Shown here piece after piece: positions 4,415 to 26,589 of a stretch of 35,280 nucleotides of DNA. The position numbers and the translations under genes were made by a program. The notes beneath the pieces are model-generated. The model was given only the letters and a program-made list of their open reading frames with translations. It was not told where the DNA came from and did not search any database. The stretch is from Gemmataceae bacterium (lineage in GTDB: Bacteria > Planctomycetota > Planctomycetia > Gemmatales > Gemmataceae): positions 1 through 35,280 of the forward strand of contig DATGHS010000223.1 of assembly GCA_035307785.1 (NCBI GenBank). Reading direction: 5' to 3'. Every line of letters begins with the position of its first letter. Positions within the stretch are counted from its first letter, which is position 1.

Positions 4415-5443
4415 TCACGTCTCCCCCAGCAACGTCGGCACCTTCTCGCGCAACAGGTCGATTTCCTGGTGCGTCTCACCGAGGTACGCCAGCAGCTTCA
4501 GGTCGTCACGGCGGACGGTGCCTCCGGAAAGCAACCACGAGCGCACGCGGAAGAGCTTGTACAGCTTCACGAGCTTGCGGTCGCTGATGAAGATGCGGTC
4601 TTCGCGCACCAGGGTTTTCACGATGCGCTGGAATTCGCGGAACACGTCCGGCGGGAAAAACAAATTGCGGTCGTTCTGCTCCTCGCTGTGCCGGCCATCT
4701 TCGATCTTGCGCGCGAACATGTAGGTGAGGTAGCGATTGGCTTTCAGCAAGTCTTCCAGCGTGCAATGCCCTTCCGCCCAGGGCCGCTGATTCAGGCCCC
4801 GCCATGATTCGGATTGGAGCCCATTGTCAATTAGCTCGGTAAAGAACTCGTCCTGCACGCTGCGGCTTTCGATCTTGAGCACGAAGCGGTCTTTCAGCGC
4901 CGCCAGTTCGCCTTGCTCCGGCACCTCATTCGTGGCCGCGAACAGGATGCGCAACTTTACCGGCACCGGGATGCCGTCCTGGTAGAACTTCTTTTCGTTA
5001 ATGATCGTGAGCAGGATGTTGAGGATCGCGGAGTTCGATTTGAAAATTTCATCGAGGAAGGCCAGCCGGGCCGTCGGCAGCTTGCCCTGCTCGCGCCGGA
5101 TGTAGCGGCCGTTGCGCAGTTCATTGATGTCGATGGGGCCAATTATTTCCGATGGCTCAGTGAAGCGCGTGAGCATGTACTCAAAGTAATCTTCGCTGCC
5201 CAGGCCTAGCGCGTCTTTGAACTTCAGCACCATGTCCGACTTGGCGGTGCCCGGCGGTCCGACCAACAGCAATGGCTCTTGAGCGATGGCGGCAACCACC
5301 ATCAGGTCGATGATGTCTTGCTTGTCCACGAAAAAGCGGTTGAGCGAAATGCGAAAACGGTTGATTTTCCCGCGCAATTGCTCCGCCTCTTGCTGCAACT
5401 CGGCAAACGTGGCTTCTTCGGCTTTCTCCATCAAGTCCGGCAT
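4415..5443 (-). CDS. AAA+ ATPase, MoxR/RavA-like (AAA_5-type)
   Basis: Walker A LLLVGPPGTAKS. Walker B LAFLDEIFK. Sensor region FAATNE. No adjacent VWA-domain partner seen. Confidence 0.8.
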   Translation of the reverse strand: MPDLMEKAEEATFAELQQEAEQLRGKINRFRISLNRFFVDKQDIIDLMVVAAIAQEPLLLVGPPGTAKSDMVLKFKDALGLGSEDYFEYMLTRFTEPSEIIGPIDINELRNGRYIRREQGKLPTARLAFLDEIFKSNSAILNILLTIINEKKFYQDGIPVPVKLRILFAATNEVPEQGELAALKDRFVLKIESRSVQDEFFTELIDNGLQSESWRGLNQRPWAEGHCTLEDLLKANRYLTYMFARKIEDGRHSEEQNDRNLFFPPDVFREFQRIVKTLVREDRIFISDRKLVKLYKLFRVRSWLLSGGTVRRDDLKLLAYLGETHQEIDLLREKVPTLLGET

Positions 5444-6404: not shown

Positions 6405-6510
6405 AGGAGTGCAAAATGCTTCGGCTTGTTTTTTTCGCCACGTCTGCCTACCCTGTGAGCCGCATGATTGCGGCGGCTTTTCGCCTTTGCACTCGAGCAG
6501 GGATGCTCCC

Positions 6511-8040: not shown

Positions 8041-8045
8041 AAACG

Positions 8046-8120
8046 ATCGGAGCCGGGAGCGCCAGCGACCGGATGAGGGAACACGTCGCTCATCCGATCG
8101 CTGGCGCTCCCGGCTCCGAT
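8046..8120. repeat. 75-nt near-perfect palindrome (32-nt arms, 1 mismatch, 11-nt loop) directly after the stop of 6511-8040
   Basis: Left arm 8046-8077 (ATCGGAGCCGGGAGCGCCAGCGACCGGATGAG). Right arm 8089-8120 is its reverse complement apart from one position. Possible terminator or a REP/MITE-like element. Confidence 0.6.
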
Positions 8121-8329
8121 TGCGCTTCCGGCAACCGGACTCTGCATGCACTTCTTCCTCATTTTGCGGCCTTTGTGTTCTTTATCTCCTTTATGGAGAA
8201 GGCTTTCTGCGGTCTTTTCTCTGGTATTTTCGCTTCCCGGCGTGTATAGTTGCAGAAGGTTTTTCCGCAATTGCAGAGCGCGGCCAGGCTTCATTGGCCG
8301 CACGGCCTATCTTCTCGGTGAGAACTTCC

Positions 8330-9109
8330 ATGAGCATGTACTTTCGCCCGCGCACGCTCCTGCTGGCGGCTGCTGTTGGCTTGCTTTTCCCCGCTGCCAT
8401 GCAGGCGCAACAACTACGCTTCAACGAGCGCGAAGCGGCGCCCAGCCCGCATGTGCAGGACAAAGACGATATTTGGACGATAACCTTCCGCTTCAAAGAC
8501 CCGCGCATGCTGGTGGTCAACGTCCCCGGCCGCGGCCAGAAGGTGGTCTGGTACATGTGGTACCAGCTTATCAATAACGACAAGGTCCCCCACAGCGTGA
8601 TCCTGGATTTCGATCTCGTGACTCGTGACCTGGGAGAGCGGAATAGAAAACTTAGTTTCCACGATGAGATCCTGCCGGCAGTGCAGGAAGAGATTCGCAA
8701 GATCGAAGACCCGACTGATCGCTTCCATATTCAGAACACCGTCACCATTGGCCAGAAGCCGATCCCGATTAGCAAGCCCGATGCCGCCCCGCGCACGGTG
8801 ACCGGTGTGGCGATCTGGCCCGATGTGTTCGACAAAGCCCGCGACACCACGCACTTCGACATCTTTGTGAGCGGCCTGTCGAGCGGCTGGTCGATTGACG
8901 ACCAGGGGAAGATTCGCCGCAAGACCCTGCAACTGGAATTCAAGCGCCTGGGCGACGGTTCGCGTGTCGACAATAACGAAATCAAGTTTGTGGATTCGAA
9001 GTGGTTCTACCGCGAAACCACGGCCAATGTGGGTTTGCAACTGCCGCCGTCGGTGCAGCCTGAAGCCGCGCCTGCGGCGCCCCCCGCGGAACCGAAGAAG
9101 GATCAGTAG
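8330..9109 (+). CDS. Secreted hypothetical protein (ORF track starts at 7952, but the upstream part spans the palindrome and is non-coding)
   Basis: Signal peptide MSMYFRPRTLLLAAAVGLLFPAAMQAQQ at 8330. Upstream 8120-8329 is T-rich non-coding. Antisense ORF 8414-9040 has GC-junk composition. Confidence 0.55.
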   Translation: MSMYFRPRTLLLAAAVGLLFPAAMQAQQLRFNEREAAPSPHVQDKDDIWTITFRFKDPRMLVVNVPGRGQKVVWYMWYQLINNDKVPHSVILDFDLVTRDLGERNRKLSFHDEILPAVQEEIRKIEDPTDRFHIQNTVTIGQKPIPISKPDAAPRTVTGVAIWPDVFDKARDTTHFDIFVSGLSSGWSIDDQGKIRRKTLQLEFKRLGDGSRVDNNEIKFVDSKWFYRETTANVGLQLPPSVQPEAAPAAPPAEPKKDQ

Positions 9110-13428: not shown

Positions 13429-13734
13429 TCAGATATCAATCTGCACTTCGTCGCCGACAATCTGCACTGGAAATGTCTGCACTCCCGAACTCGCCGGTGG
13501 GCAGCGATGGCTGCCGGTGGCCAGATCAAATCGGGCCGCGTGCCAAGGACAGGTCACTTCGCCGTTGGCGCAGGTTCCTTCATGCAACGGGGCACCGCGA
13601 TGGGTACACGTATCAGCGATGGCGAATACTTTCCCATCGACGTTGAACAGCGCAATCTTACGGCCGGCGACGTCGACTTGCCTCCCCTTACCGGGATGGA
13701 TTTCAGATAGCAATGCAACTTTGGTAAACGCCAT
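13429..13734 (-). CDS. Rieske-type [2Fe-2S] domain protein (NirD-like small Rieske ferredoxin)
   Basis: CTHRGAPLHEG ... CPWHAARFDLATG gives the CxH...CxxH Rieske ligands. 101 aa. Confidence 0.8.
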   Translation of the reverse strand: MAFTKVALLSEIHPGKGRQVDVAGRKIALFNVDGKVFAIADTCTHRGAPLHEGTCANGEVTCPWHAARFDLATGSHRCPPASSGVQTFPVQIVGDEVQIDI

Positions 13735-13777: not shown

Positions 13778-14263
13778 CTATTTCAGGATCTTCACTTCCA
13801 GGATGCCGTCGCGGCAGGAGTGCGTGACTTTCTCCGGCACCGGTGCGAACGGTAAGACGACTTCCTTCATGTACTTGCGCGAACCTTTTTCGGCGCTGAT
13901 TTTGAGCGTTTCACCAACCAATTCCACCTTTACATCTTCGCTGGCCACGCCAGGCATGTCGGCCACAATGCGAATCTGCTCGGCCTCTTCCACGATTTCA
14001 GTGCCGGAGGCATCGCCGGTCGGCGTGCCTGGGCGCCTAGCCGGATTGCCGATTTCGATGGTCAGGGCGGGCCGCTCCAGATCCGCCTTCACGGTGAGGC
14101 TATATATGCCGTGTAGGCCCGTGCCCTCCGGGAAGACGCCTTTGCGCACCCGCTGCACGCCGCTTTCGGCCAGCTGCTGCACGGAATTGACGACATGATG
14201 CAGATTCGACAGCAAGCCCTTGAGGGCTTCGTCGGACGTTGGTTTCATTGGTTCTGAAGACAT
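13778..14263 (-). CDS. Hsp20/alpha-crystallin family small heat-shock protein
   Basis: IVADMPGVASEDVKVELVGETLKISAEK...EVVLPF...DGILEVKILK is the classic ACD pattern. Confidence 0.85.
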   Translation of the reverse strand: MSSEPMKPTSDEALKGLLSNLHHVVNSVQQLAESGVQRVRKGVFPEGTGLHGIYSLTVKADLERPALTIEIGNPARRPGTPTGDASGTEIVEEAEQIRIVADMPGVASEDVKVELVGETLKISAEKGSRKYMKEVVLPFAPVPEKVTHSCRDGILEVKILK

Positions 14264-14311: not shown

Positions 14312-17300
14312 TTAACCGGATTTGCGGGCCATGCGCGAGGCGCTCAATAGCCCATTATGCGAAGAATAGGCCAGTTTGGAAGCGGGCGGGTAGGCCACGG
14401 CATTCAACTTGCCGCAATCGCTTTGAAGCGTGAGTTGCGGTTCGCCGTTTTCGAGCTTCCAAATGCGCACCGTACCATCCCAGCTACAGGAGGCAAGTTG
14501 CTTGCCGCTTGGAGAAAGCGACAGGCAGCGAATCGATTCGCGATGTCCGCTGAGCGTTTGAATTTCGCGACCGGAGGCCAAATCCCAGCGCTTGATGGTG
14601 GTGTCCCAGCTTGCCGAAAAGAGTGTCTGACCATCGGGGGCAAAGAGGACCGAGCTGACCGCCAGGCCATGACCCGTCATCGCGAGCAGTTCTTCGCCGG
14701 CGGCCTGATCCCAGAGTCGTGCGGTCTTGTCCCAACTGGCGGATGCCAATGTCAGCCCATTCGGCGCAAAGGCAAGCGAAGTCACCATCTTTTCGTGGCC
14801 GGAACAAACGGCGCGGGCGCGGCCGGTTGCCAAGTCCCAGAGCCGGATCGTGCGGTCCCAGCTTCCGGAGGCCAGCACTTTGCCGGATGGATGGAATGCC
14901 AGCGAAGTGACGGCCCCCTTGTGGCCGGTGAGCGTCGCACGTTCGGCCTTGTGCTCTATGTCCCAAAGCTTGATGGTCGAATCCCAGCTGGCCGAAGCAA
15001 GAGTCTGGCCGTCGGGAGCGAATGCCACGCTGGTCACTTCGCCAGTATGGCCGGGAAGCACGACTAAGAGTTCGCCGGACGCGATGTCCCAAATGCGAAC
15101 GGTCTGATCGGCGCTGCCGCTTGCCAGGAATAGGCCATCCGGGGAGAAGGCGAGCGAGTTCACGTCCCGGGTGTGCCCCTTCAACTGGCTCAGCTGCTTG
15201 CCAATCTCGGCATTCCAAAGGGAAACTACCTGATCATTGCCCGCCACAGCCAGCACGGTAGCGCGCGTCGACACCGGCACATTCCTCACGTCGCGCGAAA
15301 CGAGCGGCACGACATGCGTTTCCGACACGCTGCCGCCTGGCGGCATGTCTTCCGTAGGGACCATGTCGTTGAAGCGGGGGATCGGCCTGGCCGGAGTCAG
15401 TTCTAAATCCGAAACGGAAGGTGCGGTGGTCGCACTGCCTGTGGCTTCCTCAGCCGTCGCGCGCGGTCTTCCAGAATTCGCTTCCCAGAAGTAGATGATT
15501 CCATTTGCCCCGGCGGCAGCCACGGTCTTCCCGTCCGGGCTAAATGTCACAGCCGCAATATCGGTTGGAAGACCGGTCCATTCGAAGCGCGATTTGCCGG
15601 TGATCGAATGCCAAAGCTTGACCGAGCGATCGGCACCGGCAGAGGCCAACAACGAACCGGTGCCGGAAAACGCTACAGCCATGACCGGTCCTTTGTGGGC
15701 ATCGATATCCACCCATTCGGCGCCCGTGGCCACGTCCCACAATTTCAGCTGTCCATCGACGCCGCCGGTGGCGACGGCTTGACCTTCCGGCGACATCGCC
15801 AGGCAGCGAATTTCCCGGCCATGCGCGGCAATATGATGCTTCTCGCGCCAATTGGCAAGGTCGAAGATCCGCAACATGCCCATCCCGTCGCCCGTCGCCA
15901 GGCTCTTCCCTTCTTGCGCCGCCGCAATAGCGCGCACCGCAGAATCGTGGCCCAAGAGCGATCGGCGAAGTTGTCTTGTCTGCAAATCCCAGACTTTCAC
16001 CGAGCCGTCTTCGCTGCTGGTAATCAACACCTGTCCATCGGGCGGGAATGCCAGGCCGGTAACAGGCCCGCCGTGGCCCGGTAAGGCCATCATGTCCTGG
16101 CCATTGGTATTCTCCCAAAGGCAAACTTTGCCCGCGCTATCGGCGCTGGCCACGAGCCGGCCATCGAATGGAAATCCAACGGCTGTAACTTCGCTGCCGT
16201 GGCCCTGCAAGCGCGAGAGGATTTCCCCGCTGGCGGCATCCCAGAGAAGCACTTCATTGCCGGAGCCCGACGCCAGAAATTGACCATCGGGTGAATAGGT
16301 TAACGCCTTGATCGGCTTACTGGCAATTCTCGAAAGCACCGATGGTTGCGACGGCTTCGCCTGTAGCTTGCTGGACTTCGGGTCTAACTTCGGGACCGCT
16401 GACTTGCTCAACGCCGGCGCCGATTTTCTATCGGCAGCCAAACCGGGCATCTTCGAGGCAGGCAGGGCTGCCGGCGCCAAAGGCAGCGCGGGGCTGCTTG
16501 CCTTGGCTGGCGCGCTTGCCGCCGGTAGTTGCAGGTTCGCCTTCGATTCCGATTGTGGTAGGCCGGAGGGCTTCTCTTCACCGAGTTGAACCGCGATGTT
16601 ATTCAGCTGCCGGCCCGTGCCCAGGTCCCAAGTCTTGACCGTGTGATCGAGGCTGCACGAGGCCAGCCCGTGGCAATCCGGGGAAAAGGCGATCGACGTG
16701 ACCACGCCGCCGTGGCCTTGCAAGGTCGCGCGCAACTCGCCGCTTTCCGCGCTCCAGAGCTTGACCGTGCGATCCCAGCTGGCCGTCGCGAGATATCGTC
16801 CATCGCGGGAGAAGGCAACGGCGGTCACCTCGCCGCCATGTCCGCGCAACGTGGCGCGTTCCTTCCTGGTTTCCACGTCCCAGAGCCGAATGCTGTGATC
16901 AAGACTGCCGGACGCCAGAGTTTTCCCTTCCCGCGAGAAGGCGACGGAGGTAACGTCACCGTTGTGGCCTTTGAGAACTGCCGCGGTCTTGCCCGTGTTC
17001 ACGTCCCATAAGCGCACCGTTTTGTCCCAGCTGCCGCTGGCCAGCAGCAAGCCACTGGGTGCATAAGCTACCGAGGTGACCATCTGCTCGTGCCCCTCGA
17101 GGGCCCTTAATTCGGCGCGGTCTTTTAAATCCCACAGCCGGACGGTCTTGTCCCAGCCACAGCTGGCCAACCGCGACCCGTCGGGCGAAAACGCCAGCGC
17201 CGTAACTACGCCCGTGTGGCCTTTAAGCGTGGTCACCGCATCGCCGTCGGGAAGCCGCCACAGTCGCACGGTCTTGTCCCAACTGGCACTGGCGAGCGTG

Positions 17301-18607
17301 AGGCCGTCGTCGGCAAAAAGAACGCAACTCACCACCCCGCCGTGGCCGCTCAGCGTGAGCAATTCGTTGCCGCTGGCCGCATCCCACAATTTAATTGTTT
17401 TATCCCAGCTCGCCGTAGCTAGCGCTTTACCGTCGGCCGAAAACGACAACGAAGTGATGTCTCCAGAGTGGCTCGAACTGCTGACAATTCTTGGACGCGA
17501 GGCAGCCTGCTCCGCCACCAGCTCCCAGTCAAAGCGGCTGGCCTTCGGGTTTGGAAGGTCCTGGTCGTGTACCAAATCCAGCGCCGGAGGATCTGCTAGA
17601 GCTCCGCCGTCTTGTACCGCTGGCGGTATCGACTCGCCGGCTGGCAAGCCGGTTGCGACTACAACAGGCACAATCGACGTCTGCCCCTCGCGTGGAGGCG
17701 GCACGGTCTTCGGCGGGGTTACCGGAGGCGCTGGTGGCTGGGCCGGCTCCTCTTTTTGCCAAGGCTCTATTGGCGGCTTGGAGCCACCCGCATCAAAGTC
17801 GACTTCACTGCTGAGCTCGGCTGCCGGGGCCACCGAGTCGGACGGAGTAAACAGATTCACTTGTTGTTTTTGCAGAACGGTGGCCATGCCCAGCCATTGG
17901 GCGAGCGTGTGATATTGCACCGCGGCTGGTGATTGGGGGTTCATCGCGATCACCGCCTTGCCGGCCAGCAGCGCTTTCGGCACCTCTGCGTCATAGGGAA
18001 TGGTTTGCGGCAGAATATAACGGCCAAAGATATGCCGGAGATCCACGTCGAAGCCACGGCCCGCAGTCTCGCCCGGTGGCATGGTGAGGAGGATGCCGCG
18101 CATCTGCACCGCGCTTCCTTGCGACTGCATGGCCTTGATGAGCTGGAGAAACATCGGCAATGTCCGGTACGACATGGGCTCGGCCCGGATGATCAGCATC
18201 AAATTGTCGCTGAAGAAAATGAGCTTGCGGAGCAAGTCACCGGTGACGATGGGCGGCGAATCGATGACCAGCCAGCCGTAGCGCTGCGATGACGGGTGCC
18301 GCGACACCGTCTTGAGAAAATCGTCCATCGGCTGCGTGAAGGCAGCGCCGTCACTAGCCGGTTGGATCACGTCGAGGCCGGGGACAACGTTGCGCCAAAC
18401 CACGCCGTCGGCCGCGATGCCCAGTTCGCGAAGCTGCGCTTTATCGGCATGGAGGTGTAAATTGAGTGACGCGGCAACACTTCCCAAGGGATCGGTATCG
18501 ACCAACAAGACCGGAATGCCTGACAGAGCCGCGGCGGTGGACAGATTAATAGCCGTCGTGGTCTTTCCGACGCCGCCTTTCTGGCTGGCGATCAACAATT
18601 TTCGCAC
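14312..18607 (-). CDS. Giant ParA/MinD-family ATPase fused to three WD40 beta-propellers (ORF extends to 18748; GTG 18607 after GGGGAGG avoids a 100-nt overlap with the upstream gene)
   Basis: N-terminal deviant Walker A LLIASQKGGVGKTTTAINL, Walker B WLVIDSPP. Pro-rich linker, then three blocks of ~7 WD40 repeats (GH..V.S.AFSPDG..LAS.S.D.T..LWD) separated by Ala/Pro/Ser/Lys-rich linkers. 1431-1478 aa. Confidence 0.8.
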   Translation of the reverse strand: MRKLLIASQKGGVGKTTTAINLSTAAALSGIPVLLVDTDPLGSVAASLNLHLHADKAQLRELGIAADGVVWRNVVPGLDVIQPASDGAAFTQPMDDFLKTVSRHPSSQRYGWLVIDSPPIVTGDLLRKLIFFSDNLMLIIRAEPMSYRTLPMFLQLIKAMQSQGSAVQMRGILLTMPPGETAGRGFDVDLRHIFGRYILPQTIPYDAEVPKALLAGKAVIAMNPQSPAAVQYHTLAQWLGMATVLQKQQVNLFTPSDSVAPAAELSSEVDFDAGGSKPPIEPWQKEEPAQPPAPPVTPPKTVPPPREGQTSIVPVVVATGLPAGESIPPAVQDGGALADPPALDLVHDQDLPNPKASRFDWELVAEQAASRPRIVSSSSHSGDITSLSFSADGKALATASWDKTIKLWDAASGNELLTLSGHGGVVSCVLFADDGLTLASASWDKTVRLWRLPDGDAVTTLKGHTGVVTALAFSPDGSRLASCGWDKTVRLWDLKDRAELRALEGHEQMVTSVAYAPSGLLLASGSWDKTVRLWDVNTGKTAAVLKGHNGDVTSVAFSREGKTLASGSLDHSIRLWDVETRKERATLRGHGGEVTAVAFSRDGRYLATASWDRTVKLWSAESGELRATLQGHGGVVTSIAFSPDCHGLASCSLDHTVKTWDLGTGRQLNNIAVQLGEEKPSGLPQSESKANLQLPAASAPAKASSPALPLAPAALPASKMPGLAADRKSAPALSKSAVPKLDPKSSKLQAKPSQPSVLSRIASKPIKALTYSPDGQFLASGSGNEVLLWDAASGEILSRLQGHGSEVTAVGFPFDGRLVASADSAGKVCLWENTNGQDMMALPGHGGPVTGLAFPPDGQVLITSSEDGSVKVWDLQTRQLRRSLLGHDSAVRAIAAAQEGKSLATGDGMGMLRIFDLANWREKHHIAAHGREIRCLAMSPEGQAVATGGVDGQLKLWDVATGAEWVDIDAHKGPVMAVAFSGTGSLLASAGADRSVKLWHSITGKSRFEWTGLPTDIAAVTFSPDGKTVAAAGANGIIYFWEANSGRPRATAEEATGSATTAPSVSDLELTPARPIPRFNDMVPTEDMPPGGSVSETHVVPLVSRDVRNVPVSTRATVLAVAGNDQVVSLWNAEIGKQLSQLKGHTRDVNSLAFSPDGLFLASGSADQTVRIWDIASGELLVVLPGHTGEVTSVAFAPDGQTLASASWDSTIKLWDIEHKAERATLTGHKGAVTSLAFHPSGKVLASGSWDRTIRLWDLATGRARAVCSGHEKMVTSLAFAPNGLTLASASWDKTARLWDQAAGEELLAMTGHGLAVSSVLFAPDGQTLFSASWDTTIKRWDLASGREIQTLSGHRESIRCLSLSPSGKQLASCSWDGTVRIWKLENGEPQLTLQSDCGKLNAVAYPPASKLAYSSHNGLLSASRMARKSG

Positions 18608-18648
18608 GATCCAAACCTCCCCGGCCGGTAGGCGTTGCCGCACCCGGT

Positions 18649-19302
18649 TCAGCGTTTCAACAGTGAGTCGTTCAAATTGCGGGCCAATGTACCAAATGCC
18701 GCGGAAGCCACACCTTGAGGAGGCGGGACCCCGGCCTTGAGCGCCCATTCGCGCATTTCCTGCTGCAAAGGAATGACCGGGCTCAGTAGCAATTCGCGAT
18801 GTCCTTCTTGTAACCGGCTAAGCACAGCGCGTTGCACTTCATCCTGGGCATCATAAATGCCGACTAGCAATCCCAATAATTCGAGCCGGCGATTGGCTTC
18901 TCGCGCCTTGCCAATTATCATTGCCGCGGCCGGCACCGTACGAATGGACAGCGGGTCTGCCAAGCTGGTGAGAATAATGCCGTCCGCCGCGCTCAGCACT
19001 CGCTGTGACAACGGATCAAGCAGCGACGGACTATCCACAATCACAATCTGAGTCTGGTGCGGGCCGGCAAGTGCTTCCAGACCGGTCTGAAATTGCACGT
19101 TCGGCCACGGGCACTGGCCGGCCGAATTCAGCGCCACCATGCTCATGGAACGCATCGGTACCGCGTCCACAAGCGTGACCGAGTGGCCCGCCTGACCCAA
19201 ATGCCAGCCCAGGCATAGCGCCGTAGTCGTCCGCCCGGTACCGCCCTTGTGGCTGACGATTCCCAAAATGTAGGGCGACCTCGCCAATGATTTCTCCTTC
19301 AC
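18649..19302 (-). CDS. ParA/MinD-family P-loop paralog with Walker A Lys-to-Arg (SHKGGTGRTTT)
   Basis: 217 aa. ILGIVSHKGGTGRTTTALCLG: signature first Lys present, GK[ST] Lys encoded as CGG (Arg) at 19231-19233 (checked in DNA). Walker B-like QIVIVDSPS. Confidence 0.7.
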   Translation of the reverse strand: MKEKSLARSPYILGIVSHKGGTGRTTTALCLGWHLGQAGHSVTLVDAVPMRSMSMVALNSAGQCPWPNVQFQTGLEALAGPHQTQIVIVDSPSLLDPLSQRVLSAADGIILTSLADPLSIRTVPAAAMIIGKAREANRRLELLGLLVGIYDAQDEVQRAVLSRLQEGHRELLLSPVIPLQQEMREWALKAGVPPPQGVASAAFGTLARNLNDSLLKR

Positions 19303-19537: not shown

Positions 19538-20296
19538 TCACACACGTGTCTGTTCCAGTGCTGCCAGCACGTCGGCATGATTTTTGCGCCCATGCCCGGC
19601 GAGCGGTTGGAGCCGCTCCGGAACCGTAATGACAAACCGGCTGCGGTCAGCGCCGCAGCTGAAGCAATCCGTTTGCAAGCAATCGAGTTCGGTCCCGGAG
19701 AAGACCGAAAACATGCCGCTCAGAAAGCCGGCCAACAGGGTCTCCACCGGTTGGCCGCCTTGCCGAACGCTTGCCCCCAGCATCGGTGTTTCCACTTCGA
19801 CGGTCAACAAGCCGCGGTCATAGCGGCTGAAACCAAATTGGAAGGTGCCCCAGCCATGATGCTCAAACGCCTGGGCGAGATTGGCACTGAACATAGCCAT
19901 CGGCAAATCCAGCAGCGCTTTGCCGAAATGCTGCTGCATTTGCGCCGCAAATTGTTCCGCTGCCTTGCGGCCCCATTCCCGGCCCGTCGCTTTCAGCACC
20001 GGCAACGCCCGATCCCCCATCTGCCCCTCCAACGAATTGCAGAAAGCGAGCAGGAAATCGTCGGTGAGGGCCAGCATGCGCACGCCGGCCCGATTCTGCA
20101 TCGTGCCCTTGCGCAGATCGTGCTCGATATAGCCGGGCTCGCCGAAGTAGTTGCCCTTCAGCAGCAGGCCTTCTGTATTGGCTTCCATTTCAAGCTCTTG
20201 TTGGTCTTGCCGCCACAAATCCATGTTCGGAGCCGGGGTCGCAAACGGCCGGATTGAGCGCCGTCTCCCATCCGGTCGCTTGCGCTCTCGGCTCAT
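19538..20296 (-). CDS. V4R (4-vinyl reductase / Bet3-like) domain protein (alternative start M at 20224)
   Basis: C-terminal ETLLAGFLSGMFSVFSGTELDCLQTDCFSCGADRSRFVI matches the V4R consensus (G.L.G......G..v.v.E..C...G...C.F.I). Confidence 0.5.
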   Translation of the reverse strand: MSRERKRPDGRRRSIRPFATPAPNMDLWRQDQQELEMEANTEGLLLKGNYFGEPGYIEHDLRKGTMQNRAGVRMLALTDDFLLAFCNSLEGQMGDRALPVLKATGREWGRKAAEQFAAQMQQHFGKALLDLPMAMFSANLAQAFEHHGWGTFQFGFSRYDRGLLTVEVETPMLGASVRQGGQPVETLLAGFLSGMFSVFSGTELDCLQTDCFSCGADRSRFVITVPERLQPLAGHGRKNHADVLAALEQTRV

Positions 20297-20315
20297 ATCC
20301 GTCTTTTAGCTACCG

Positions 20316-20852
20316 TTACGCACTCGTCGCCGCGGGTTCCGGCAGTTCGCTCAAGACTTCAATATTTCGGTCCAAATACGGTTGCAAAAGGGCCGCGGTT
20401 TGCGGGCTGGTATGCTTGGCCACTTGATCGCGCAAGAGCGTGAAGCAATCGCGGCTAAACTTCGGGCTGAAGTTGCCGGCCGCTAAAACTGTGCGCAGCC
20501 AGAACAAGACTTTTTCATCCAGCCAGCGCATGTGGTCGAGAATCATTGCCTGCACATTGAAGCGCAGCACCAATTGTACGTCGTTCTGCGTTTTGGCCAG
20601 CGCCGGGCCCTTTATCGCCGACGATTCCGGATAGCGCTGCTGCATCGCTTCGATCACTGCTTGAACGATGACGTCCTCATGCTCCTGCACCTGATCGGCC
20701 GCTTGAAAGCGCGCGGGCAGCGAGGCGGCTTGGGTCAGCAGCGCCCGTCGTTCATCGGCGTGGAAATAGCGCCCTTCGGCGCCACGGACGAGACTTTGCA
20801 ACTGCGAGTTCATGGGCGAACCTTTCTTCCAACCAGCCTTCCGGCGTGTCAT
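20316..20852 (-). CDS. Phycobilisome-like (globin-fold, PF00502-like) protein lacking the bilin-attachment Cys
   Basis: Aligns along its length to phycocyanin alpha: LVRGAEGRYF~AADTQGRFL, AMQQRYPESS~AVYQKFPYTT, WLDEKVL~PMDEYLI, AAGNFSP~STFDLSP, C-terminal L..YLD..I..L. Cys of the CARD chromophore site is absent. Confidence 0.5.
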   Translation of the reverse strand: MTRRKAGWKKGSPMNSQLQSLVRGAEGRYFHADERRALLTQAASLPARFQAADQVQEHEDVIVQAVIEAMQQRYPESSAIKGPALAKTQNDVQLVLRFNVQAMILDHMRWLDEKVLFWLRTVLAAGNFSPKFSRDCFTLLRDQVAKHTSPQTAALLQPYLDRNIEVLSELPEPAATSA

Positions 20853-21806
20853 TCATTCCCAGGCGGCCAGCGCCATCACCGTCGCCACCGTCCAGGCCGC
20901 ACCGCCGGTCGGCCCATAGCCGAAGAGAGGGACACCCTTGGCCAATGTGATCGTTTCCTTTTCGAGACCAGCGAGCGGATCGCGAATGGGATGGCGAACC
21001 TGATCCGGCCGGTTGCGCCAGTTCATCAGAGTAAAGTATCCCGCGGTCGTTACATTTCCCAGCGGAATAAGATCGGCTGTCGGCACATTCGGTTGTGTGA
21101 CGGGCTTGGACAGAGCAACCGGGATCGGGGCGGGCTTTTTTTCCTCCCGGGTGTTCCGCCAGTTGTACTTTTGCAAAAAGGAACTGGCCGGCTCGAGGGC
21201 CAACTCGGGTGGCGGCGCCGGCTTTTCCACTGCCTGCATTTCCGCTTCGTCCGCGGCGAGCGCGAAATGAACCGGCACCACAGGCGTAATGGGTACCTTG
21301 GGCATTTCCACTTTTGTCGGCGAAGCCACGGGCGGCTCTTCTTTGGCGGGAGAAATTGCAGGCAGTTGCAATTCGGCTTTGGATGGTGAAATAGCGGGTA
21401 GCTGTAGCTCTGCTTTCGATGATGATACGGGAGGCAGCTTCAACTCTGCCTTGGATTGCGACGCGGTAATCCGTTGAAGTTCCGCCCTGGAGAACGAAAC
21501 GGTAGGCGGCAACTTGGTTTCAGGATCGGACGGTCTGGCCGGCATCGCCGGCGGCACGGGCAACGGCAAGGGCGCGATCGGCACTTGCGCCGCGGCCGGC
21601 AGCGCATCCAGGTCCACGTCTTCCAGTGCGAGGCCAGGGGAATCGAATATCGGATGCGATGCTTCCAGCCCCGGTGACTGCGGAACAAACCCTGCGGCCA
21701 AGGGTTGGTTTTCGTCGGGCGGCAAGGGCGGCATCAATTCGGCCAATAACTCTGCGATCTTGGCCCGCTCCGGAATTTCCCTGCCGTTCATATTGCTGCC
21801 AGCCAT
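20853..21806 (-). CDS. Proline-rich protein with four 12-aa tandem repeats (S[KR]AELQLPAISP) and hydrophobic C-terminus
   Basis: AAGGGG RBS-like 5 nt upstream of ATG 21806. Stop overlaps or abuts downstream gene start (20852/20853). Repeats encoded by ~36-nt units at 21348-21491. Confidence 0.55.
   Translation of the reverse strand: MAGSNMNGREIPERAKIAELLAELMPPLPPDENQPLAAGFVPQSPGLEASHPIFDSPGLALEDVDLDALPAAAQVPIAPLPLPVPPAMPARPSDPETKLPPTVSFSRAELQRITASQSKAELKLPPVSSSKAELQLPAISPSKAELQLPAISPAKEEPPVASPTKVEMPKVPITPVVPVHFALAADEAEMQAVEKPAPPPELALEPASSFLQKYNWRNTREEKKPAPIPVALSKPVTQPNVPTADLIPLGNVTTAGYFTLMNWRNRPDQVRHPIRDPLAGLEKETITLAKGVPLFGYGPTGGAAWTVATVMALAAWE
21348..21491 (-). repeat. Four imperfect ~36-nt tandem repeats encoding the 12-aa units of the Pro-rich protein
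   Basis: Encoded SRAELQRITASQ / SKAELKLPPVSS / SKAELQLPAISP / SKAELQLPAISP. Nucleotide units such as ggcagttgcaattcggctttggatggtgaaatagcg and ggtagctgtagctctgctttcgatgatgatacggga. Confidence 0.5.
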
Positions 21807-23274: not shown

Positions 23275-26200
23275 ATGCACCGGGAGTTACGAACGACGAA
23301 CGAGGCGTTTCAACCGCCGAAGATGGCCGGGCTCTGCCTGTTCACCGGCTTGCTGCTCTTTCTCGTTGGCCGCGACTTGTGGCCTGATTTGGCCTCTTTC
23401 CTCGGCCGCCAGGGGCTTGACCTGCCCACCGGCTCGCGCGAACTCTTCGGCTTCCGCTATGCCCTTTATGCCGCGGTGATTGGCGGCGCCCGGGTACTTT
23501 ACGGTTCACTCGAAAGCCTGTTCGAAGGAAAGCTCGGGGCCGATCTGGCGCTGGCGGTCGCCTGTATTGCCGCCATTCTTATCGGCGAACCGCTGGTTGC
23601 AGCGGAAGTCGTCCTCATCGGCCTGATTGGCGAGTGTCTGGAAGGCTTCACGTTTGCCCGCACGCAAAACGCCATACGCAAGCTGGCCGAACTTTTCCCC
23701 ATTCGTTGCTGGGTGGTGCGCGACGGACAGGAAATGCGCATGTTCGTAAGCGACGTCGTGGTGGGCGATGTCGTCGTCGTAAAGCCAGGGGCCAAGGTGC
23801 CGGTCGACGGCAACGTGCGCGACGGCCGCTCGGCTGTGGATGTGAGCGCGCTGACCGGCGAAAGCTTGCCGGTGGATAAAGGGCCGGGCGACGAAGTCTT
23901 GGCGGGTAGTTTGAACCAGAATGGCGCCTTAACGATTGAAGCAAAGCGCGTGCAGGAACAAACGGTCGCCGGCCGGGTGCTGGAACTCACCGCGAAGGCA
24001 CTGAAGGAAAAAGCTCCGGTAGCGCGGCACGCTGACCGGTTGGCGAAGTACTTTCTCCCAGCCGTGCTGGCCCTCGCCGCCGTGACCTTCATGGCGAATC
24101 TGCTCTGGTACGCGGGTCCCTTCCGCGGGGAAGCGGTGCGCTTGACGCTGGGCCAGGCGGCGCGGCTCAGCATGTACCCGGCCCTGGCGGTACTGGTGGT
24201 CGCATGCCCGTGCGCATTGATTCTCGCCACTCCGGCAGCGGTTATTGCCGCGCTCGGCCGCCTTGCGGGCACCGGGGTCCTGCTGAAAAGTGGGGCCGCG
24301 CTGGAGCGCCTGGCTGGGGTCACGAGTTTTGCCTTCGACAAGACTGGCACCCTAACGGAGGGCAAGCTCGAACTTGGCGATATTCTGCCGGTCGATAGCA
24401 CCACTCCACCGGAACAACTCTTGCGCCGGGCCGCCAACGCGGAACTGCCAAGCGAGCATCCGCTGGCTCGCGTGCTGGTGCAGGAAGCGCAGCGGCGATC
24501 ACTCGTGCTTGATCCGGTCGAGGAATTCATTGCCCATCCGGGAGCCGGCGTGCGAACGCGGGTTGGCGGCAAAACGCTGCTCGTCGGTACACCGCGGTTG
24601 CTGCAGGAGCAAGGCCTGTCGCCCGGCACCGAAGTGCGCGCACTGCTCGAGCGCCTCGAAAACGATGGCCAAACGCCATTGCTCATTGCCGCCGACGGCC
24701 GCATTCTCGGCGCCATTGGAGCGCGCGACCGTATTCGACCGGAAGCTCGCGGCATTATCGTGGAATTACGCGAATTGGGTATACAGGACATCTCGCTGCT
24801 GACCGGCGACCGGAACGCTGTGGCCGTGAAAGTCGCCTCGGACCTTGGCATCGAATCTGTGCATGCCGAATTGTTGCCGGCCGACAAGGCAAAGCTGGTT
24901 ACCGCCCAAGCGGACACGGAAGCAGCACAGTCGGTTGCCTTTGTTGGCGACGGCGTGAACGATGCGCCGGCACTGGCCAGCGCCACCGTTGGCCTGGCGG
25001 TCGGCGGCGGAGCCGAGATTGCTGCCGAGGCGGGCGACGTCGTGCTGATGGGCGATCCGCTGGCGCCGTTGCCGCTTCTGGTGCGCCTATCGCGGCAAAC
25101 GGTTCACATCATTCGGCAAAACATCGTCATCTTCGCGTTTGGCGTAAACATTGTCGGCATTGTCCTCACCGGCTGGCTCTGGCCGCTGCTTGCGCGCTCG
25201 CCGGAATGGTACGAACGCGCTCCGCTGGCCGGCGTGATCTACCATCAGCTCGGCTCGCTGCTCGTGCTACTGAATTCCATGCGGCTCCTGGCCTTTGAAC
25301 GCAAGAGCGTAAAGGCATCCTCCGGCCGGGTACGCAGCGCTCTACAGCAGCTTGATGTCTGGGTCGAGCGGGCCAGCAATGCGGATGAATGGCTGCACGA
25401 GCTTTCGCATCGCTGGAAGCCGATCGCGCTCGGCATCAGTCTCATCGGCGTTGCTGCCTACGCCGCGAGCGGCCTCACGCAAGTGGAGCCGAACGAAATT
25501 GCCGTGGTGCGGCGCTTTGGCCGGCCGCTTGAAGAGGATCTCGGCCCCGGCCTGCACTGGCGCTGGCCGTGGCCGGTGGAAACCGTGCTGAAGACACAGC
25601 CGGATCAAGTGCGCAGCGTGGAAGTGGGCTTTCGGGTGTTGAAAGATCGTCTGGCGAAAACAGAGGGTCAACAGACACGGGCCGCACTCACCTGGCTCAG
25701 CCAGCACGAAAGCGAAGGCGTGCTCCGGATCGAAGGCGAAGCCGTCATGCCCACCGGCGACGGCAACCTGATCGAACTCTTGGCCACGCTGCAATACCGC
25801 CTCCGCTCACCCCGACGCTATTTGCTGGAAGTGAATAATCCGGACGAAATTCTGCGCGCGAATTTGGAAGCGGCGTTGCGCGAACAGGCGGCCGGCGAAT
25901 CGTTTCTGGAATTGCTCACGCTGCGCCGGGCGGAGTTTCAGCGCGAGGTGTTCGCCCGCTTGCAGAAGCGCTTGCAATCCTACGGCGACCCGGGTCTTGG
26001 CATTGTCTTGGAAGGTCTTGCGCTGCGCGACCTGCACCCGCCGGCCCCGGTAGTGCCGTCGTTCCACGACGTGGCCAAAGCCGCCGAGGGGCACGACCAG
26101 ATGATAAAGGAAGCTGAGGCCGAGGCGCTGCGCATTCGCCGTGACGCCGAGAGCAAAGGGAAGGAAATCGAACGCCAAGCCGAAGCCGCCGCGCATCGCA

Positions 26201-26589
26201 CCGTGGAAATGGCGAAGAAAGACCGCGACGCCTTTCTGGCCTGGTACAGGCTGCGAACCGAACTCAGCCCGGCCGTCGAATCGCGGCTGGCAACGGAAAC
26301 GGTCGGTCTGATCCTGGCCGGGCAAGACGTAACCAGCGCCCTGGCCGACCATCAGCGCCGCCGGCAACAGCAACTGGAGAATCAGGCTTTCCTGGTTGAT
26401 TTCCGGCTGACGTGGATGGCCCTGGGCGAAACGCTCTCGCAGCGCGACAAGGTGTTCATCGATGCCGACAAACTCCCAGGCCGCCGCACGCTGCTGCTCT
26501 TCGGTCCGGACCAACTCACACCGCCGCCCATTATCCTTCCAAGCCGCATGCCAGGGCGAGGGCCGGGTGTGGAGGGGGAGGAACGCTAA
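23275..26589 (+). CDS. P1B-type (CPC) heavy-metal-translocating P-type ATPase fused in frame to a C-terminal HflK/SPFH (band-7) domain
   Basis: P1B ATPase motifs TGESLPVDK, CPCALILATPAA, FDKTGTLTEG, VGDGVNDAPALA. No N-terminal HMA/CxxC domain. After the last ATPase helices comes a TM helix PIALGISLIGVAAYAA, then the SPFH domain EPNEIAVVRRFGRPLEEDLGPGLHWRWPWPVETV, then an HflK-like coiled-coil tail (AEAEALRIRRDAESKGKEIERQAEAAA). Confidence 0.8.
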   Translation: MHRELRTTNEAFQPPKMAGLCLFTGLLLFLVGRDLWPDLASFLGRQGLDLPTGSRELFGFRYALYAAVIGGARVLYGSLESLFEGKLGADLALAVACIAAILIGEPLVAAEVVLIGLIGECLEGFTFARTQNAIRKLAELFPIRCWVVRDGQEMRMFVSDVVVGDVVVVKPGAKVPVDGNVRDGRSAVDVSALTGESLPVDKGPGDEVLAGSLNQNGALTIEAKRVQEQTVAGRVLELTAKALKEKAPVARHADRLAKYFLPAVLALAAVTFMANLLWYAGPFRGEAVRLTLGQAARLSMYPALAVLVVACPCALILATPAAVIAALGRLAGTGVLLKSGAALERLAGVTSFAFDKTGTLTEGKLELGDILPVDSTTPPEQLLRRAANAELPSEHPLARVLVQEAQRRSLVLDPVEEFIAHPGAGVRTRVGGKTLLVGTPRLLQEQGLSPGTEVRALLERLENDGQTPLLIAADGRILGAIGARDRIRPEARGIIVELRELGIQDISLLTGDRNAVAVKVASDLGIESVHAELLPADKAKLVTAQADTEAAQSVAFVGDGVNDAPALASATVGLAVGGGAEIAAEAGDVVLMGDPLAPLPLLVRLSRQTVHIIRQNIVIFAFGVNIVGIVLTGWLWPLLARSPEWYERAPLAGVIYHQLGSLLVLLNSMRLLAFERKSVKASSGRVRSALQQLDVWVERASNADEWLHELSHRWKPIALGISLIGVAAYAASGLTQVEPNEIAVVRRFGRPLEEDLGPGLHWRWPWPVETVLKTQPDQVRSVEVGFRVLKDRLAKTEGQQTRAALTWLSQHESEGVLRIEGEAVMPTGDGNLIELLATLQYRLRSPRRYLLEVNNPDEILRANLEAALREQAAGESFLELLTLRRAEFQREVFARLQKRLQSYGDPGLGIVLEGLALRDLHPPAPVVPSFHDVAKAAEGHDQMIKEAEAEALRIRRDAESKGKEIERQAEAAAHRTVEMAKKDRDAFLAWYRLRTELSPAVESRLATETVGLILAGQDVTSALADHQRRRQQQLENQAFLVDFRLTWMALGETLSQRDKVFIDADKLPGRRTLLLFGPDQLTPPPIILPSRMPGRGPGVEGEER

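What the first reader, a model, noticed from the sequence alone, without database searches (positions are those of the whole stretch)
14312..18748. ParA/MinD ATPase fused to three WD40 beta-propellers; start site ambiguous with a ~100-nt overlap
A 1.4-kaa single ORF has a ParA ATPase domain, then a Pro-rich linker, then three blocks of ~7 WD40 repeats separated by Ala/Pro/Ser/Lys linkers. This is unusual: ParA proteins are normally ~250-300 aa stand-alone proteins. The longest ORF start (18748) overlaps the upstream ParA paralog by 100 nt. A GTG at 18607 preceded by GGGGAGG gives a canonical-looking ParA N-terminus (V-R-K-L-L-I-A-S-Q-KGGVGKTT).
Basis: partly seen in the sequence, partly recalled or inferred. 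Interest (0 to 1): 0.7.

Follow-up and report, generated by a model that had tools for sequence, protein, structure and literature searches.

The report
ParA-type ATPase fused to three propellers
This is a real, single 1431-residue gene of a Gemmataceae (Planctomycetota) bacterium that joins a ParA/MinD-type ATPase switch to three seven-bladed WD40 propellers; it belongs to a conserved but unstudied family that usually sits in one operon with a small ParA-like partner and a bilin-globin/V4R sensor-like gene set.

Summary
The ORF at 14312..18748 (-) exists. It has an intact ParA/MinD ATPase domain, a disordered Pro-rich linker and exactly 3 x 7 WD40 blades.

The start is the GTG at 18607, which gives 1431 aa. 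Orthologues start at M/V-RKLL, some with in-frame stops just upstream. Another assembly calls exactly this product.

The fusion is not an assembly artefact. The same architecture is in frame in about 20 protein clusters, including the isolate genome of Telmatocola sphagniphila. The one frameshifted relative lies in an error-rich long-read contig.

The family is a paralogue of a commoner Gemmataceae ParA-linker-transmembrane family. The positions of Soj's DNA-binding arginines read E/Y/E, and there is no parB, minE or membrane helix. It is therefore not a partition ParA or a MinD.

In four lineages it follows a small ParA-like gene with an invariant KGGTGR P-loop and a globin/V4R set that resembles BBAG clusters.

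Most likely mechanism (inferred): a nucleotide-gated dimerising scaffold, probably working with the KGGTGR partner, that assembles or positions protein partners through its propellers.

I found no paper on it. Interest is moderate.

The parts
14312..18607 (-). CDS of the ParA-WD40 protein, 1431 aa, from GTG 18607 through the stop codon at 14312-14314
   Evidence: ORF. Start supported by orthologue N-termini and by in-frame stops upstream of them. Exactly this product is called in another assembly, L091.
18616..18622 (-). Shine-Dalgarno-like GGGGAGG, 8 nt upstream of the GTG
   Evidence: Sequence read directly. L001 has GGGAGGAATTGATC-GTG in the same place.
18608..18748 (-). 47-codon extension of the longest ORF (ATG 18748), judged not translated; 18649-18748 overlaps the end of the upstream gene
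   Evidence: The extension is absent from all orthologues, and stops lie 1-12 codons upstream of the start in L001, L082, L086 and L084. The 1478-aa product is not on record. The codon-position GC test was uninformative.
17873..18607 (-). ParA/MinD-type ATPase domain, aa 1-245
   Evidence: Pfam CbiA and AAA_31. AF2 pLDDT above 90. Foldseek matches FlhG, Soj, ParA, BcsQ and MinD. phmmer best PDB match is T. thermophilus Soj 1WCV, E=6e-19.
18557..18580 (-). Deviant Walker A motif KGGVGKTT (aa 10-17), with both the signature Lys and the P-loop Lys
17468..17872 (-). Disordered Pro-rich and acidic linker 1 (aa 246-380). It contains VNLF (aa 250-253, nt 17849-17860), the local form of a clade-specific motif [VI][DE][LI]F.
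   Evidence: AF2 pLDDT below 50. The motif is present in 11 of 16 WD-type proteins and 0 of 57 TM-type proteins.
16586..17467 (-). WD40 propeller 1, seven blades (aa 381-674)
   Evidence: Its best matches are the first propellers of orthologues, at 57-59% identity.
16316..16585 (-). Disordered Ala/Pro/Ser/Lys linker 2 (aa 675-764)
15446..16315 (-). WD40 propeller 2, seven blades (aa 765-1054), the most divergent of the three
15260..15445 (-). Disordered linker 3 (aa 1055-1116)
14390..15259 (-). WD40 propeller 3, seven blades (aa 1117-1406)
   Evidence: Its best matches are the last propellers of P0125 and P0180, at 57% identity.
18649..19302 (-). Small ParA-like partner gene (217 aa, or 212 aa as called elsewhere) with the P-loop SHKGGTGRTTT (Walker A Lys to Arg)
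   Evidence: Pfam CbiA. The motif is invariant in 6 loci and in 69 of 73 clusters. It sits directly upstream of the ParA-WD40 gene in L001, L085, L087/L088, L091 and L092.
19538..20296 (-). V4R-domain protein, part of the conserved upstream gene set
   Evidence: Pfam V4R, 32.2 bits against a cut-off of 31. Syntenic homologues occur in L085, L001, L092 and L088.
20316..20852 (-). Globin of the Pfam 'Phycobilisome' family (BBAG-like)
   Evidence: Pfam E=1.9e-17. Syntenic in L001, L085 and L092. Compare the BBAG clusters described in PMC10151467.
20853..21806 (-). Pro-rich protein of unknown family. Its stop abuts the globin start, and its C-terminus is weakly conserved in L085 and L001.
13778..14263 (-). 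Hsp20 gene 48 nt downstream on the same strand. It is not conserved in the related loci.

Best explanation
One genuine gene (GTG 18607 to stop 14312, 1431 aa) encodes a soluble ParA/MinD-superfamily ATPase. The ATPase is joined by a roughly 135-aa disordered linker to three seven-bladed WD40 propellers, which are themselves separated by disordered linkers. It is an orthologue of a conserved, uncharacterised Gemmataceae family, for example WP_213496410.1 of Telmatocola sphagniphila. That family is a paralogue of the commoner Gemmataceae 'ParA - Pro-rich linker - transmembrane helix' proteins. All of this is shown.

The mechanism is inferred. ATP binding dimerises the ParA domains, as in all deviant-Walker-A ATPases. 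The likely partner or regulator is the co-transcribed small ParA-like protein, whose invariant KGGTGR P-loop should bind nucleotide but hydrolyse it poorly. Dimerisation brings up to six flexibly tethered propellers together. This would make a nucleotide-gated scaffold that assembles, sequesters or positions protein partners rather than DNA. The positions of Soj's DNA-binding arginines are not basic, and no ParB, MinE or membrane-targeting helix is present. In the TM paralogues the same ATPase is tethered to the membrane instead, so the C-terminal part looks like the localisation or cargo device. The conserved upstream globin/V4R genes plausibly supply a small-molecule (bilin or redox) input.
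For: Gene and architecture.

Start: orthologues begin at [M/V]RKLL. In-frame stops lie 1-12 codons upstream in four loci, and L001 has the same GGAGG-8nt-GTG arrangement. The 1431-aa product is called in assembly ERZ27279682, whereas the 1478-aa version is not on record.

The fusion is real and old. In-frame relatives are P0001 (99%), P0004, P0121/L085, L092 (39% identity end to end, 3 x 7 blades), P0125/L087/L088, P0123 (isolate genome), P0124, P0155, P0180, P0201, P0202, P0220, P0269, P0274, P0306, P0317, P0248 and P0293. The propellers are positionally orthologous. The blade DNA copies are only 60-70% identical to each other.

Paralogy with the TM type: 95 of 97 long homologues have a hydrophobic segment and the WD-type proteins have none. 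An NJ tree separates the two types.

Catalytic motifs are kept, while the Soj arginine positions read E, Y and E.

Partner: the small gene is directly upstream in five related loci, and KGGTGR is invariant.

The globin/V4R set is upstream in four lineages.
Against: No experiment exists for any family member. Heterodimerisation with the KGGTGR protein is inferred only from adjacency.

Two WD-type genes (Telmatocola L082 and L086) are solitary. They lack both the small partner and the globin/V4R set nearby, so neither association is obligatory.

Several WD-type members have lost the signature lysine, or in one case the P-loop lysine (P0269, P0274, P0306, P0155, P0220). This suggests that ATP turnover is dispensable in part of the family.

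The numbering of the Soj DNA-binding arginines comes from my memory of the B. subtilis sequence and of Hester & Lutkenhaus 2007, which I could not open.

The propeller ligands are unknown.
Confidence: 0.6

Rival explanations
1. Assembly or annotation artefact: two separate genes, a ParA and a WD40 protein, were wrongly joined in this contig.
For: In the closest complete relative (L001, 67% identical ParA domain) the ParA part and the 1064-aa WD40 part are in different frames.
Against: L001 is an error-rich long-read-style contig in which neighbouring genes (kinase, V4R, V4R-like, cobW-like) are also split. Its break lies within about 80 nt of linker sequence. The fusion is in frame in the window, in a second assembly (L091), in a 99% identical variant (P0001), and in about 20 divergent clusters that include an isolate's complete genome. 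There are no long DNA repeats that could cause a misjoin.
Confidence: 0.02
2. The protein starts at ATG 18748 (1478 aa), with a 100-nt overlap on the upstream gene.
For: It is the longest ORF. The gene caller behind P0001 chose this start.
Against: The extension is not conserved in any orthologue, and stops lie immediately upstream of the conserved start in four loci. A strong RBS precedes the GTG. The overlapped stretch encodes the conserved C-terminus of the small ParA-like protein. The GTG product is the one on record.
Confidence: 0.04
3. It is a DNA-partition ParA (Soj-type) that moves a chromosome or plasmid over the nucleoid with a ParB partner, with the propellers as an accessory.
For: The best PDB sequence match is Soj. 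The NCBIfam ParA_partition model gives a weak hit.
Against: The ParA_partition score is 73 against a cut-off of 180. No parB-like gene is present in the operon or the window. Soj's three DNA-binding arginine positions read E, Y and E, and this is conserved in the family consensus.
Confidence: 0.04
4. It is a sensor or effector of a conflict (immunity) system. This could be analogous to STAND NTPases with C-terminal WD40 sensor arrays, or to the (inactive) MinD/ParA-like effector domains of the vWA-MoxR ternary systems.
For: An NTPase with a long WD40 array is the STAND-like layout. Kaur et al. 2020 (PMC7159879) report MinD/ParA-like domains, often next to Ser/Thr kinases, in vWA-MoxR systems. 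A bpMoxR gene lies at 4415..5443 in this window. A Ser/Thr kinase heads the cluster in L085 and L001.
Against: PADLOC gives no relevant match. No effector (nuclease, protease, TIR) or vWA gene is linked. The MoxR gene is about 9 kb away, beyond glycolytic genes and on the far side. The catalytic motifs are intact here, whereas those effectors are predicted to be inactive. Synteny is stable with a globin/V4R set rather than variable as in defence islands.
Confidence: 0.1
5. It is a pseudo-enzyme scaffold. The ParA domain serves only as a constitutive dimerisation or interaction module, and nucleotide turnover plays no regulatory role.
For: Several WD-type relatives have lost the signature Lys or altered the P-loop (QAGGAGKT, PKAGVGKT, SAGGVGKT, RRSGVGRT, PTVGVGKT). 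The operon partner has KGGTGR.
Against: In the window protein and most relatives, Walker A (93 of 135 are exactly SQKGGVGKTT), Walker A' and Walker B are strictly conserved. That argues for selection on catalysis.
Confidence: 0.15

Closest known systems
Soj/ParA of Thermus thermophilus (PDB 1WCV, 2BEJ, 2BEK) and other chromosomal ParA proteins
   Same: The ATPase domain has the same fold and motifs: identical QKGGVGKTTTAINL, Walker A' Asp and Walker B Asp. phmmer gives E=6e-19 and Foldseek a TM-score of 0.76 on the target. ATP-sandwich dimerisation is expected.
   Different: Sequence identity is only 27-28%. The DNA-binding arginine positions are replaced by E, Y and E, and there is no ParB. 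The protein carries about 1190 extra residues (linkers plus three propellers). It scores below the NCBIfam partition-ParA cut-off.
MinD, FlhG/FleN and BcsQ (non-DNA ParA/MinD positioning and regulatory ATPases)
   Same: Structural similarity is comparable to that with Soj. Like them, it is an orphan ParA-like ATPase without ParB that presumably positions or regulates a protein assembly.
   Different: No C-terminal amphipathic membrane-targeting helix follows the domain; a disordered linker does instead. No min, flagellar or bcs genes are nearby. Scores are far below the family cut-offs (BcsQ 73.7 against 157.85; MinD 29.6 against 212.9).
Gemmataceae 'ParA - Pro-rich linker - transmembrane helix' proteins (e.g. 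P0024, P0093 of Telmatocola; annotated 'ParA family protein')
   Same: These are the closest sequence relatives of the ATPase domain outside the WD clade, at 40-48% identity. They share the IPYDxEV and LTLPxGE signatures and a long disordered linker after the domain. In Telmatocola this type is also preceded by the KGGTGR small partner.
   Different: The C-terminal device is one or two transmembrane helices rather than three propellers. They lack the [VI][DE][LI]F motif (0 of 57).
Uncharacterised ParA-WD40 proteins in databases (WP_213496410.1 'AAA family ATPase' of Telmatocola sphagniphila; HTK75688.1; JGI 'WD40 repeat protein/cellulose biosynthesis protein BcsQ')
   Same: The architecture and propeller order are the same, with 35-63% identity. 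The window protein is a member of this family.
   Different: Linker lengths vary, some members have one or two propellers (P0293, P0180), some have degenerate Walker A motifs, and some are solitary genes.
STAND NTPases with WD40 arrays (Apaf-1-like, NACHT-WD40)
   Same: The layout is the same: an N-terminal oligomerising NTPase followed by C-terminal WD40 propellers that could sense or bind ligands.
   Different: The NTPase belongs to a different class (SIMIBI deviant Walker A, which dimerises, rather than STAND AAA+-like, which forms rings). There is no effector domain.

Membership tests
ParA/MinD superfamily (deviant Walker A, SIMIBI-class ATPases) | Deviant Walker A KGGxGK[ST] with the N-terminal signature lysine | tested here: met
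   aa 10-17 read KGGVGKTT.
ParA/MinD superfamily (deviant Walker A, SIMIBI-class ATPases) | Walker A' Asp and Walker B Asp | tested here: met
   VDTDP and VIDSPP align with Soj LLVDLDP (D44) and LLDAPP. Both are invariant or nearly invariant in the family.
ParA/MinD superfamily (deviant Walker A, SIMIBI-class ATPases) | Fold and profile match | tested here: met
   Pfam CbiA 64.7 bits (cut-off 25.4) and AAA_31 61.3 bits (cut-off 27). AF2 pLDDT above 90. Foldseek probability 1.00 to FlhG, Soj, ParA, BcsQ and MinD.
Partition ParA (Soj / type I plasmid ParA) | Reaches the NCBIfam ParA_partition equivalog cut-off | tested here: not met
   73.1 bits against a cut-off of 180.
Partition ParA (Soj / type I plasmid ParA) | Basic residues for non-specific DNA binding (B. 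subtilis Soj R189, R215, R218) | tested here: not met
   The aligned positions read E, Y and E (TMPPGETA; IPYDAEV). The residue numbering comes from my recollection of the Soj sequence and paper, which I could not open.
Partition ParA (Soj / type I plasmid ParA) | Adjacent parB or other centromere-binding partner gene | tested here: not met
   None was found among the operon genes or elsewhere in the window.
MinD | C-terminal amphipathic membrane-targeting helix, minC/minE neighbours and the family score | tested here: not met
   The domain is followed by a disordered linker. minD_bact scores 29.6 against 212.9. There are no min genes.
BcsQ | Family score and bcs operon context | tested here: not met
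   TIGR03371 scores 73.7 against 157.85. No cellulose synthase genes are present.
Gemmataceae ParA-WD40 family (unnamed; e.g. WP_213496410.1) | An N-terminal ParA domain of the IPYD/LTxPPGE type, followed by a disordered linker and then WD40 propellers in conserved order | tested here: met
   End-to-end alignments: 43% identity at 99% coverage to P0121 and 39% over aa 1-1418 to L092. Propellers 1 and 3 match their positional counterparts best. The ParA domains of this type cluster together in the tree.
Gemmataceae ParA-WD40 family (unnamed; e.g. WP_213496410.1) | Motif [VI][DE][LI]F 8-11 residues after the ATPase domain | tested here: inconclusive
   The window has VNLF (Asn in place of Asp/Glu) at the right position. 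The canonical motif occurs in 11 of 16 family members.
STAND NTPase-WD40 proteins | NACHT, NB-ARC or another STAND NTPase domain | tested here: not met
   Pfam and NCBIfam give only ParA/MinD-type matches for the N-terminal domain.
BBAG-type gene cluster (globin + two V4R + Fe-S protein, with or without HO/FDBR; Rockwell et al. 2023) | Phycobiliprotein-family globin with V4R proteins in one cluster | tested here: met
   The window has the globin (E=1.9e-17) and one V4R gene. L085 and L092 have the globin, a V4R gene and a V4R-like gene. Cluster definition is taken from PMC10151467.
BBAG-type gene cluster (globin + two V4R + Fe-S protein, with or without HO/FDBR; Rockwell et al. 2023) | Associated Fe-S protein, heme oxygenase or bilin reductase; bilin binding by the globin | tested here: inconclusive
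   A Rieske 2Fe-2S gene lies at 13429..13734 (-), two genes downstream, but it is not conserved in L085 or L092. No HO or FDBR is present in the window. The globin lacks a CxRD motif. Bilin binding cannot be tested here.

The most novel reading that the evidence does not exclude
The six-gene module (V4R - unknown - phycobiliprotein-like globin - V4R-like - KGGTGR mini-ParA - ParA-3xWD40), conserved in at least four Gemmataceae lineages, may be a previously undescribed signalling or spatial-organisation system. In it, a bilin- or redox-sensing globin/V4R unit would control an asymmetric ParA heterodimer, one catalytic and one hydrolysis-impaired subunit. The ATP state of that dimer would gate assembly of a six-propeller protein scaffold. 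This would be a new functional class of ParA/MinD ATPase, and the first output assigned to BBAG-type globin clusters in heterotrophs.
Probability: 0.25. Interest if true: 0.7.

Novelty: new variant of a known kind. Interest (0 to 1): 0.5.

Why it matters
ParA/MinD ATPases are the general bacterial device for placing chromosomes, plasmids, division sites, flagella, carboxysomes and chemoreceptor arrays. In all studied cases the ATPase is a small stand-alone protein that needs a surface (nucleoid or membrane) and a separate partner.

Here the same switch is covalently tied, by a long flexible tether, either to three protein-binding propellers or, in the paralogue, to a membrane anchor. It is also paired with a P-loop-variant mini-ParA. 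If it works as proposed, it would extend the ParA/MinD paradigm to a built-in cargo adaptor and to an asymmetric heterodimer.

It occurs in Gemmataceae, bacteria with unusual endomembranes and FtsZ-less budding division whose cell biology is largely unexplained. It also gives a testable downstream partner for the BBAG/V4R globin clusters, whose function is unknown (PMC10151467). A cultured organism, Telmatocola sphagniphila, carries both paralogues, so experiments are feasible.

Tried and rejected
(1) The genome-contig scan with the ParA alignment was wasted.

(2) The first word-indexed homologue search with the ParA domain missed most WD-type relatives. The full-length search and the exhaustive representative search recovered them.

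(3) Codon-position GC content could not decide between the two starts, because the region is too short and the values are similar.

(4) My first regex and HMM attempt to count blades failed. A blade-signature regex and the AF2 model settled the count.

(5) The promoter and terminator scans gave nothing beyond chance. There is one plausible terminator-like hairpin after the PDZ gene at 21929-21910, and a weak one after the ParA-WD40 stop.

(6) PADLOC gave only a WD40-to-WD40 hit, so there is no defence-system assignment.

(7) Literature searches for ParA + WD40 + Planctomycetes/Gemmata and for orphan ParA-like ATPases found no description of this architecture. Hester & Lutkenhaus 2007 could not be opened.

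(8) The AF2 model gives no structure for the linker motif, whose pLDDT falls from about 70 to below 50. The idea that it docks on the ATPase domain therefore remains untested.

(9) The Hsp20 gene was considered as part of the system and rejected, because it is not syntenic in L085, L001 or L092.


Full report
**Observation.** The window is a complete 35,280-bp contig of a Gemmataceae (Planctomycetota) metagenome-assembled genome. The small upstream ParA-like protein is 100% identical to a database entry named 'MAG TPA: ParA family protein [Gemmataceae bacterium]', whose longest contig is 35,280 bp.
- The longest ORF on the minus strand runs 14312..18748 (1478 aa).
- Its N-terminal 245 residues match Pfam CbiA and AAA_31 above their gathering scores and carry KGGVGKTT.
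- The rest gives massive WD40 matches.
- A blade-signature scan finds exactly 21 blades with a 42-residue period, in three groups of seven.
- An AlphaFold2 model of residues 375-1431 shows three blocks of 28 strands at pLDDT about 90, corresponding to aa 384-672, 766-1053 and 1118-1405. Disordered linkers separate them and a disordered tail follows.
- The ATPase domain itself models at pLDDT above 90, and the 135-residue Pro-rich segment after it is disordered.

**Start codon.**
- All orthologues begin at M/V-RKLL-[IV]-ASQKGGVGKTT.
- In four related loci an in-frame stop lies 1-12 codons upstream of that start, so no extension is possible there.
- The closest complete relative, L001, uses GTG preceded by GGGAGGAATTGATC, almost the same as here.
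- The 100 nt that the ATG-started ORF would overlap encode the conserved C-terminus of the upstream protein.
- The 1431-aa GTG product is on record as a called gene in a second assembly (ENA ERZ27279682, a 22-kb contig). The 1478-aa version is not on record.
- A codon-position GC test was uninformative.
- I take 18607 as the start.

In L001 the ParA part (P0002, 397 aa) and a 1064-aa three-propeller ORF overlap in different frames. That contig, however, has many split genes, including the kinase, the V4R and the V4R-like genes. Its break lies within about 80 nt of linker sequence. This is typical of uncorrected long-read indels.

Against that single case, the same architecture is in frame in many independent sources:
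- the window and the second assembly;
- a 99% identical variant (P0001) and a 57% identical fragment (P0004);
- P0121 on a short-read contig;
- a 1422-aa protein on a 677-kb Gemmataceae contig, 39% identical over residues 1-1418 with 3 x 7 blades;
- P0125 in two assemblies;
- the complete genome of the isolate Telmatocola sphagniphila (WP_213496410.1, 1640 aa);
- about a dozen further clusters.

Propellers 1 and 3 of the window protein match the first and last propellers of orthologues better (57-59%) than they match each other (46%). The three-propeller layout is therefore ancestral. The blade DNA copies are only 60-70% identical, so repeat-driven misassembly is unlikely.

**Family relations.** An exhaustive search of 1.84 billion representatives finds 128 clusters at E below 1e-30.
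- Most are 440-540-aa Gemmataceae proteins with the same ATPase domain, a long Pro-rich linker and a hydrophobic segment. Of the long homologues, 95 of 97 have such a segment and the WD-type proteins have none.
- At least eleven of the listed representatives are WD40 fusions.
- In a neighbour-joining tree most WD-type ATPase domains group apart from the TM type. P0125/P0180 fall beside the TM clade and P0155 is an outlier.
- Most WD-type proteins share a short motif [VI][DE][LI]F 8-11 residues after the domain. It occurs in 11 of 16 WD-type and 0 of 57 TM-type proteins, and reads VNLF in the window.
- Telmatocola has both paralogues.

**What kind of ParA?**
- The closest solved relatives by sequence are T. 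thermophilus Soj (E=6e-19) and other Soj/ParA proteins. By fold, Soj, FlhG, FleN, BcsQ and MinD are about equally close.
- Walker A, including the signature lysine, is conserved, as are the Walker A' Asp and the Walker B Asp.
- The protein is below the cut-off for every curated subfamily: ParA_partition 73 against 180, BcsQ 74 against 158, MinD 30 against 213.
- At the positions of the three arginines that mediate Soj's non-specific DNA binding, the family has E, Y and E. The arginines are R189, R215 and R218 in B. subtilis, numbered from my recollection. The review PMC9178275 confirms only that surface arginines mediate the binding.
- There is no parB, minC/E, flagellar or bcs gene in the window, and no amphipathic helix follows the domain.
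- It is therefore a member of the ParA/MinD superfamily, but not of any characterised subfamily.

**Context.** The gene is preceded, 41 nt upstream, by a 217-aa ParA-like gene whose P-loop is SHKGGTGRTTT.
- The Lys-to-Arg change is invariant in six loci and present in 69 of 73 clusters, all apparently Gemmataceae.
- This small gene directly precedes the ParA-WD40 gene in L001, L085, L087/L088, L091 and L092. In Telmatocola it precedes the TM paralogue.
- Further upstream, on the same strand, lie a V4R-domain gene, a globin of the Pfam 'Phycobilisome' family and a Pro-rich unknown.
- The order V4R - unknown - globin - V4R-like - small ParA - ParA-WD40 is conserved in L085 and L092 and, with split genes, in L001. 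The window lacks only the first V4R.
- This set resembles the BBAG clusters (bilin-binding globin, two V4R proteins and an Fe-S protein) that Rockwell et al. 2023 described in heterotrophs and cyanobacteria, whose function is unknown (PMC10151467).
- The associations are not universal. The Telmatocola and L086 WD-type genes are solitary, and two TM-type genes lack the small partner.

**Mechanism.** The following are shown:
- an intact deviant-Walker-A ATPase;
- long disordered tethers;
- three propellers;
- a conserved operon partner with a hydrolysis-type P-loop substitution;
- no DNA-binding or membrane-binding signature.

The following is inferred from what is established for the superfamily:
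- ATP induces a sandwich dimer.
- With the KGGTGR protein this could be an asymmetric heterodimer.
- Dimerisation would cluster up to six propellers, giving a nucleotide-gated scaffold that recruits or positions protein partners.
- The TM paralogue does the equivalent at the membrane.
- The globin/V4R genes may provide the input signal.

I put about 0.95 on the gene model and family assignment and about 0.35 on this mechanism. The loss of the signature lysine in several relatives keeps a pseudo-enzyme scaffold reading alive. A conflict-system reading (STAND-like, or vWA-MoxR effector-like; PMC7159879) is weakly suggested by a bpMoxR gene 9 kb away. Neither PADLOC nor the stable synteny supports it.

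**Novelty and verdict.**
- I found no publication describing ParA-WD40 proteins.
- Members are already in public databases under generic names.
- WD40 arrays are fused to many signalling domains in Planctomycetes (PMC5587647, PMC8567305), which tempers the surprise.
- I classify this as a new variant of a known kind: a ParA/MinD ATPase with a built-in triple-propeller adaptor and a P-loop-variant partner.
- Interest is moderate (0.5). It would be higher if the link to the globin/V4R module proves functional.

Noticed in passing
window 19538-21806 (-); also L085 3823-6834, L092 6415-8907, L001 6277-9324: A non-photosynthetic planctomycete carries a globin of the Pfam 'Phycobilisome' family together with V4R-domain genes. 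This resembles the BBAG clusters of Rockwell et al. 2023. In these loci the set is conserved directly upstream of the ParA pair, and in L085 and L001 a Ser/Thr kinase heads it. The window globin has no CxRD motif, and no HO or FDBR gene is in the window.
   Followed up: partly
window 18649-19302 (-): The small ParA-like family has an invariant [SG]HKGGTGR[ST]T P-loop (Walker A Lys to Arg) in 69 of 73 clusters, all apparently Gemmataceae. It scores only 27 bits against the NCBIfam KGGVGR-variant model (cut-off 90), so it is a separate, unnamed family.
   Followed up: partly
window 17849-17860 (-) and the equivalent positions in relatives: The short linear motif [VI][DE][LI]F lies 8-11 residues after the ATPase domain. 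It is often repeated two or three times in the acidic linker (for example VVDLF, AVDLF and AIDF in L092). It is specific to the WD-type clade, in 11 of 16 against 0 of 57 TM-type proteins. Its function is unknown.
   Followed up: partly
window 23275-26589 (+): A 1104-aa P-type ATPase (E1-E2_ATPase plus HAD hydrolase) carries a C-terminal SPFH/Band 7 domain (aa 736-951). This is an unusual fusion.
   Followed up: no
window 4415-5443 (-): A bpMoxR AAA+ gene (PF20030, the MoxR of MoxR-vWA-beta-propeller ternary systems, E=8e-58) is followed on the other strand by three ORFs without Pfam matches (5667-6404, 6409-8040, 7952-9109). These might be the vWA and partner components.
   Followed up: no
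window 7-1410 (+): A second WD40-repeat ORF (eight or more repeats) lies at the left end of the contig and is probably truncated by the contig end. It is 30-39% identical to the propellers of the ParA-WD40 family.
   Followed up: no
window 13429-13734 (-) and 13778-14263 (-): Hsp20 and Rieske [2Fe-2S] genes follow the ParA-WD40 gene on the same strand, with a 48-nt gap before the Hsp20 gene. They are not syntenic in L085, L001 or L092. The Rieske protein could nevertheless correspond to the Fe-S component of BBAG clusters.
   Followed up: partly
L001 (ENA ERZ25039463 contig_37036), whole 21-kb locus: Many genes are split by frame changes relative to their intact counterparts in L085 and the window (cobW-like, kinase, V4R, V4R-like and ParA-WD40). 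This indicates uncorrected indel errors in that public assembly.
   Followed up: partly
window 28802-32695 (+): A 1297-aa protein combines DUF7133 or a GSDH-like propeller, HEAT repeats and a C-terminal cytochrome c domain. A homologue lies near the solitary ParA-WD40 gene in L086 (29% identity). This is probably coincidental.
   Followed up: no
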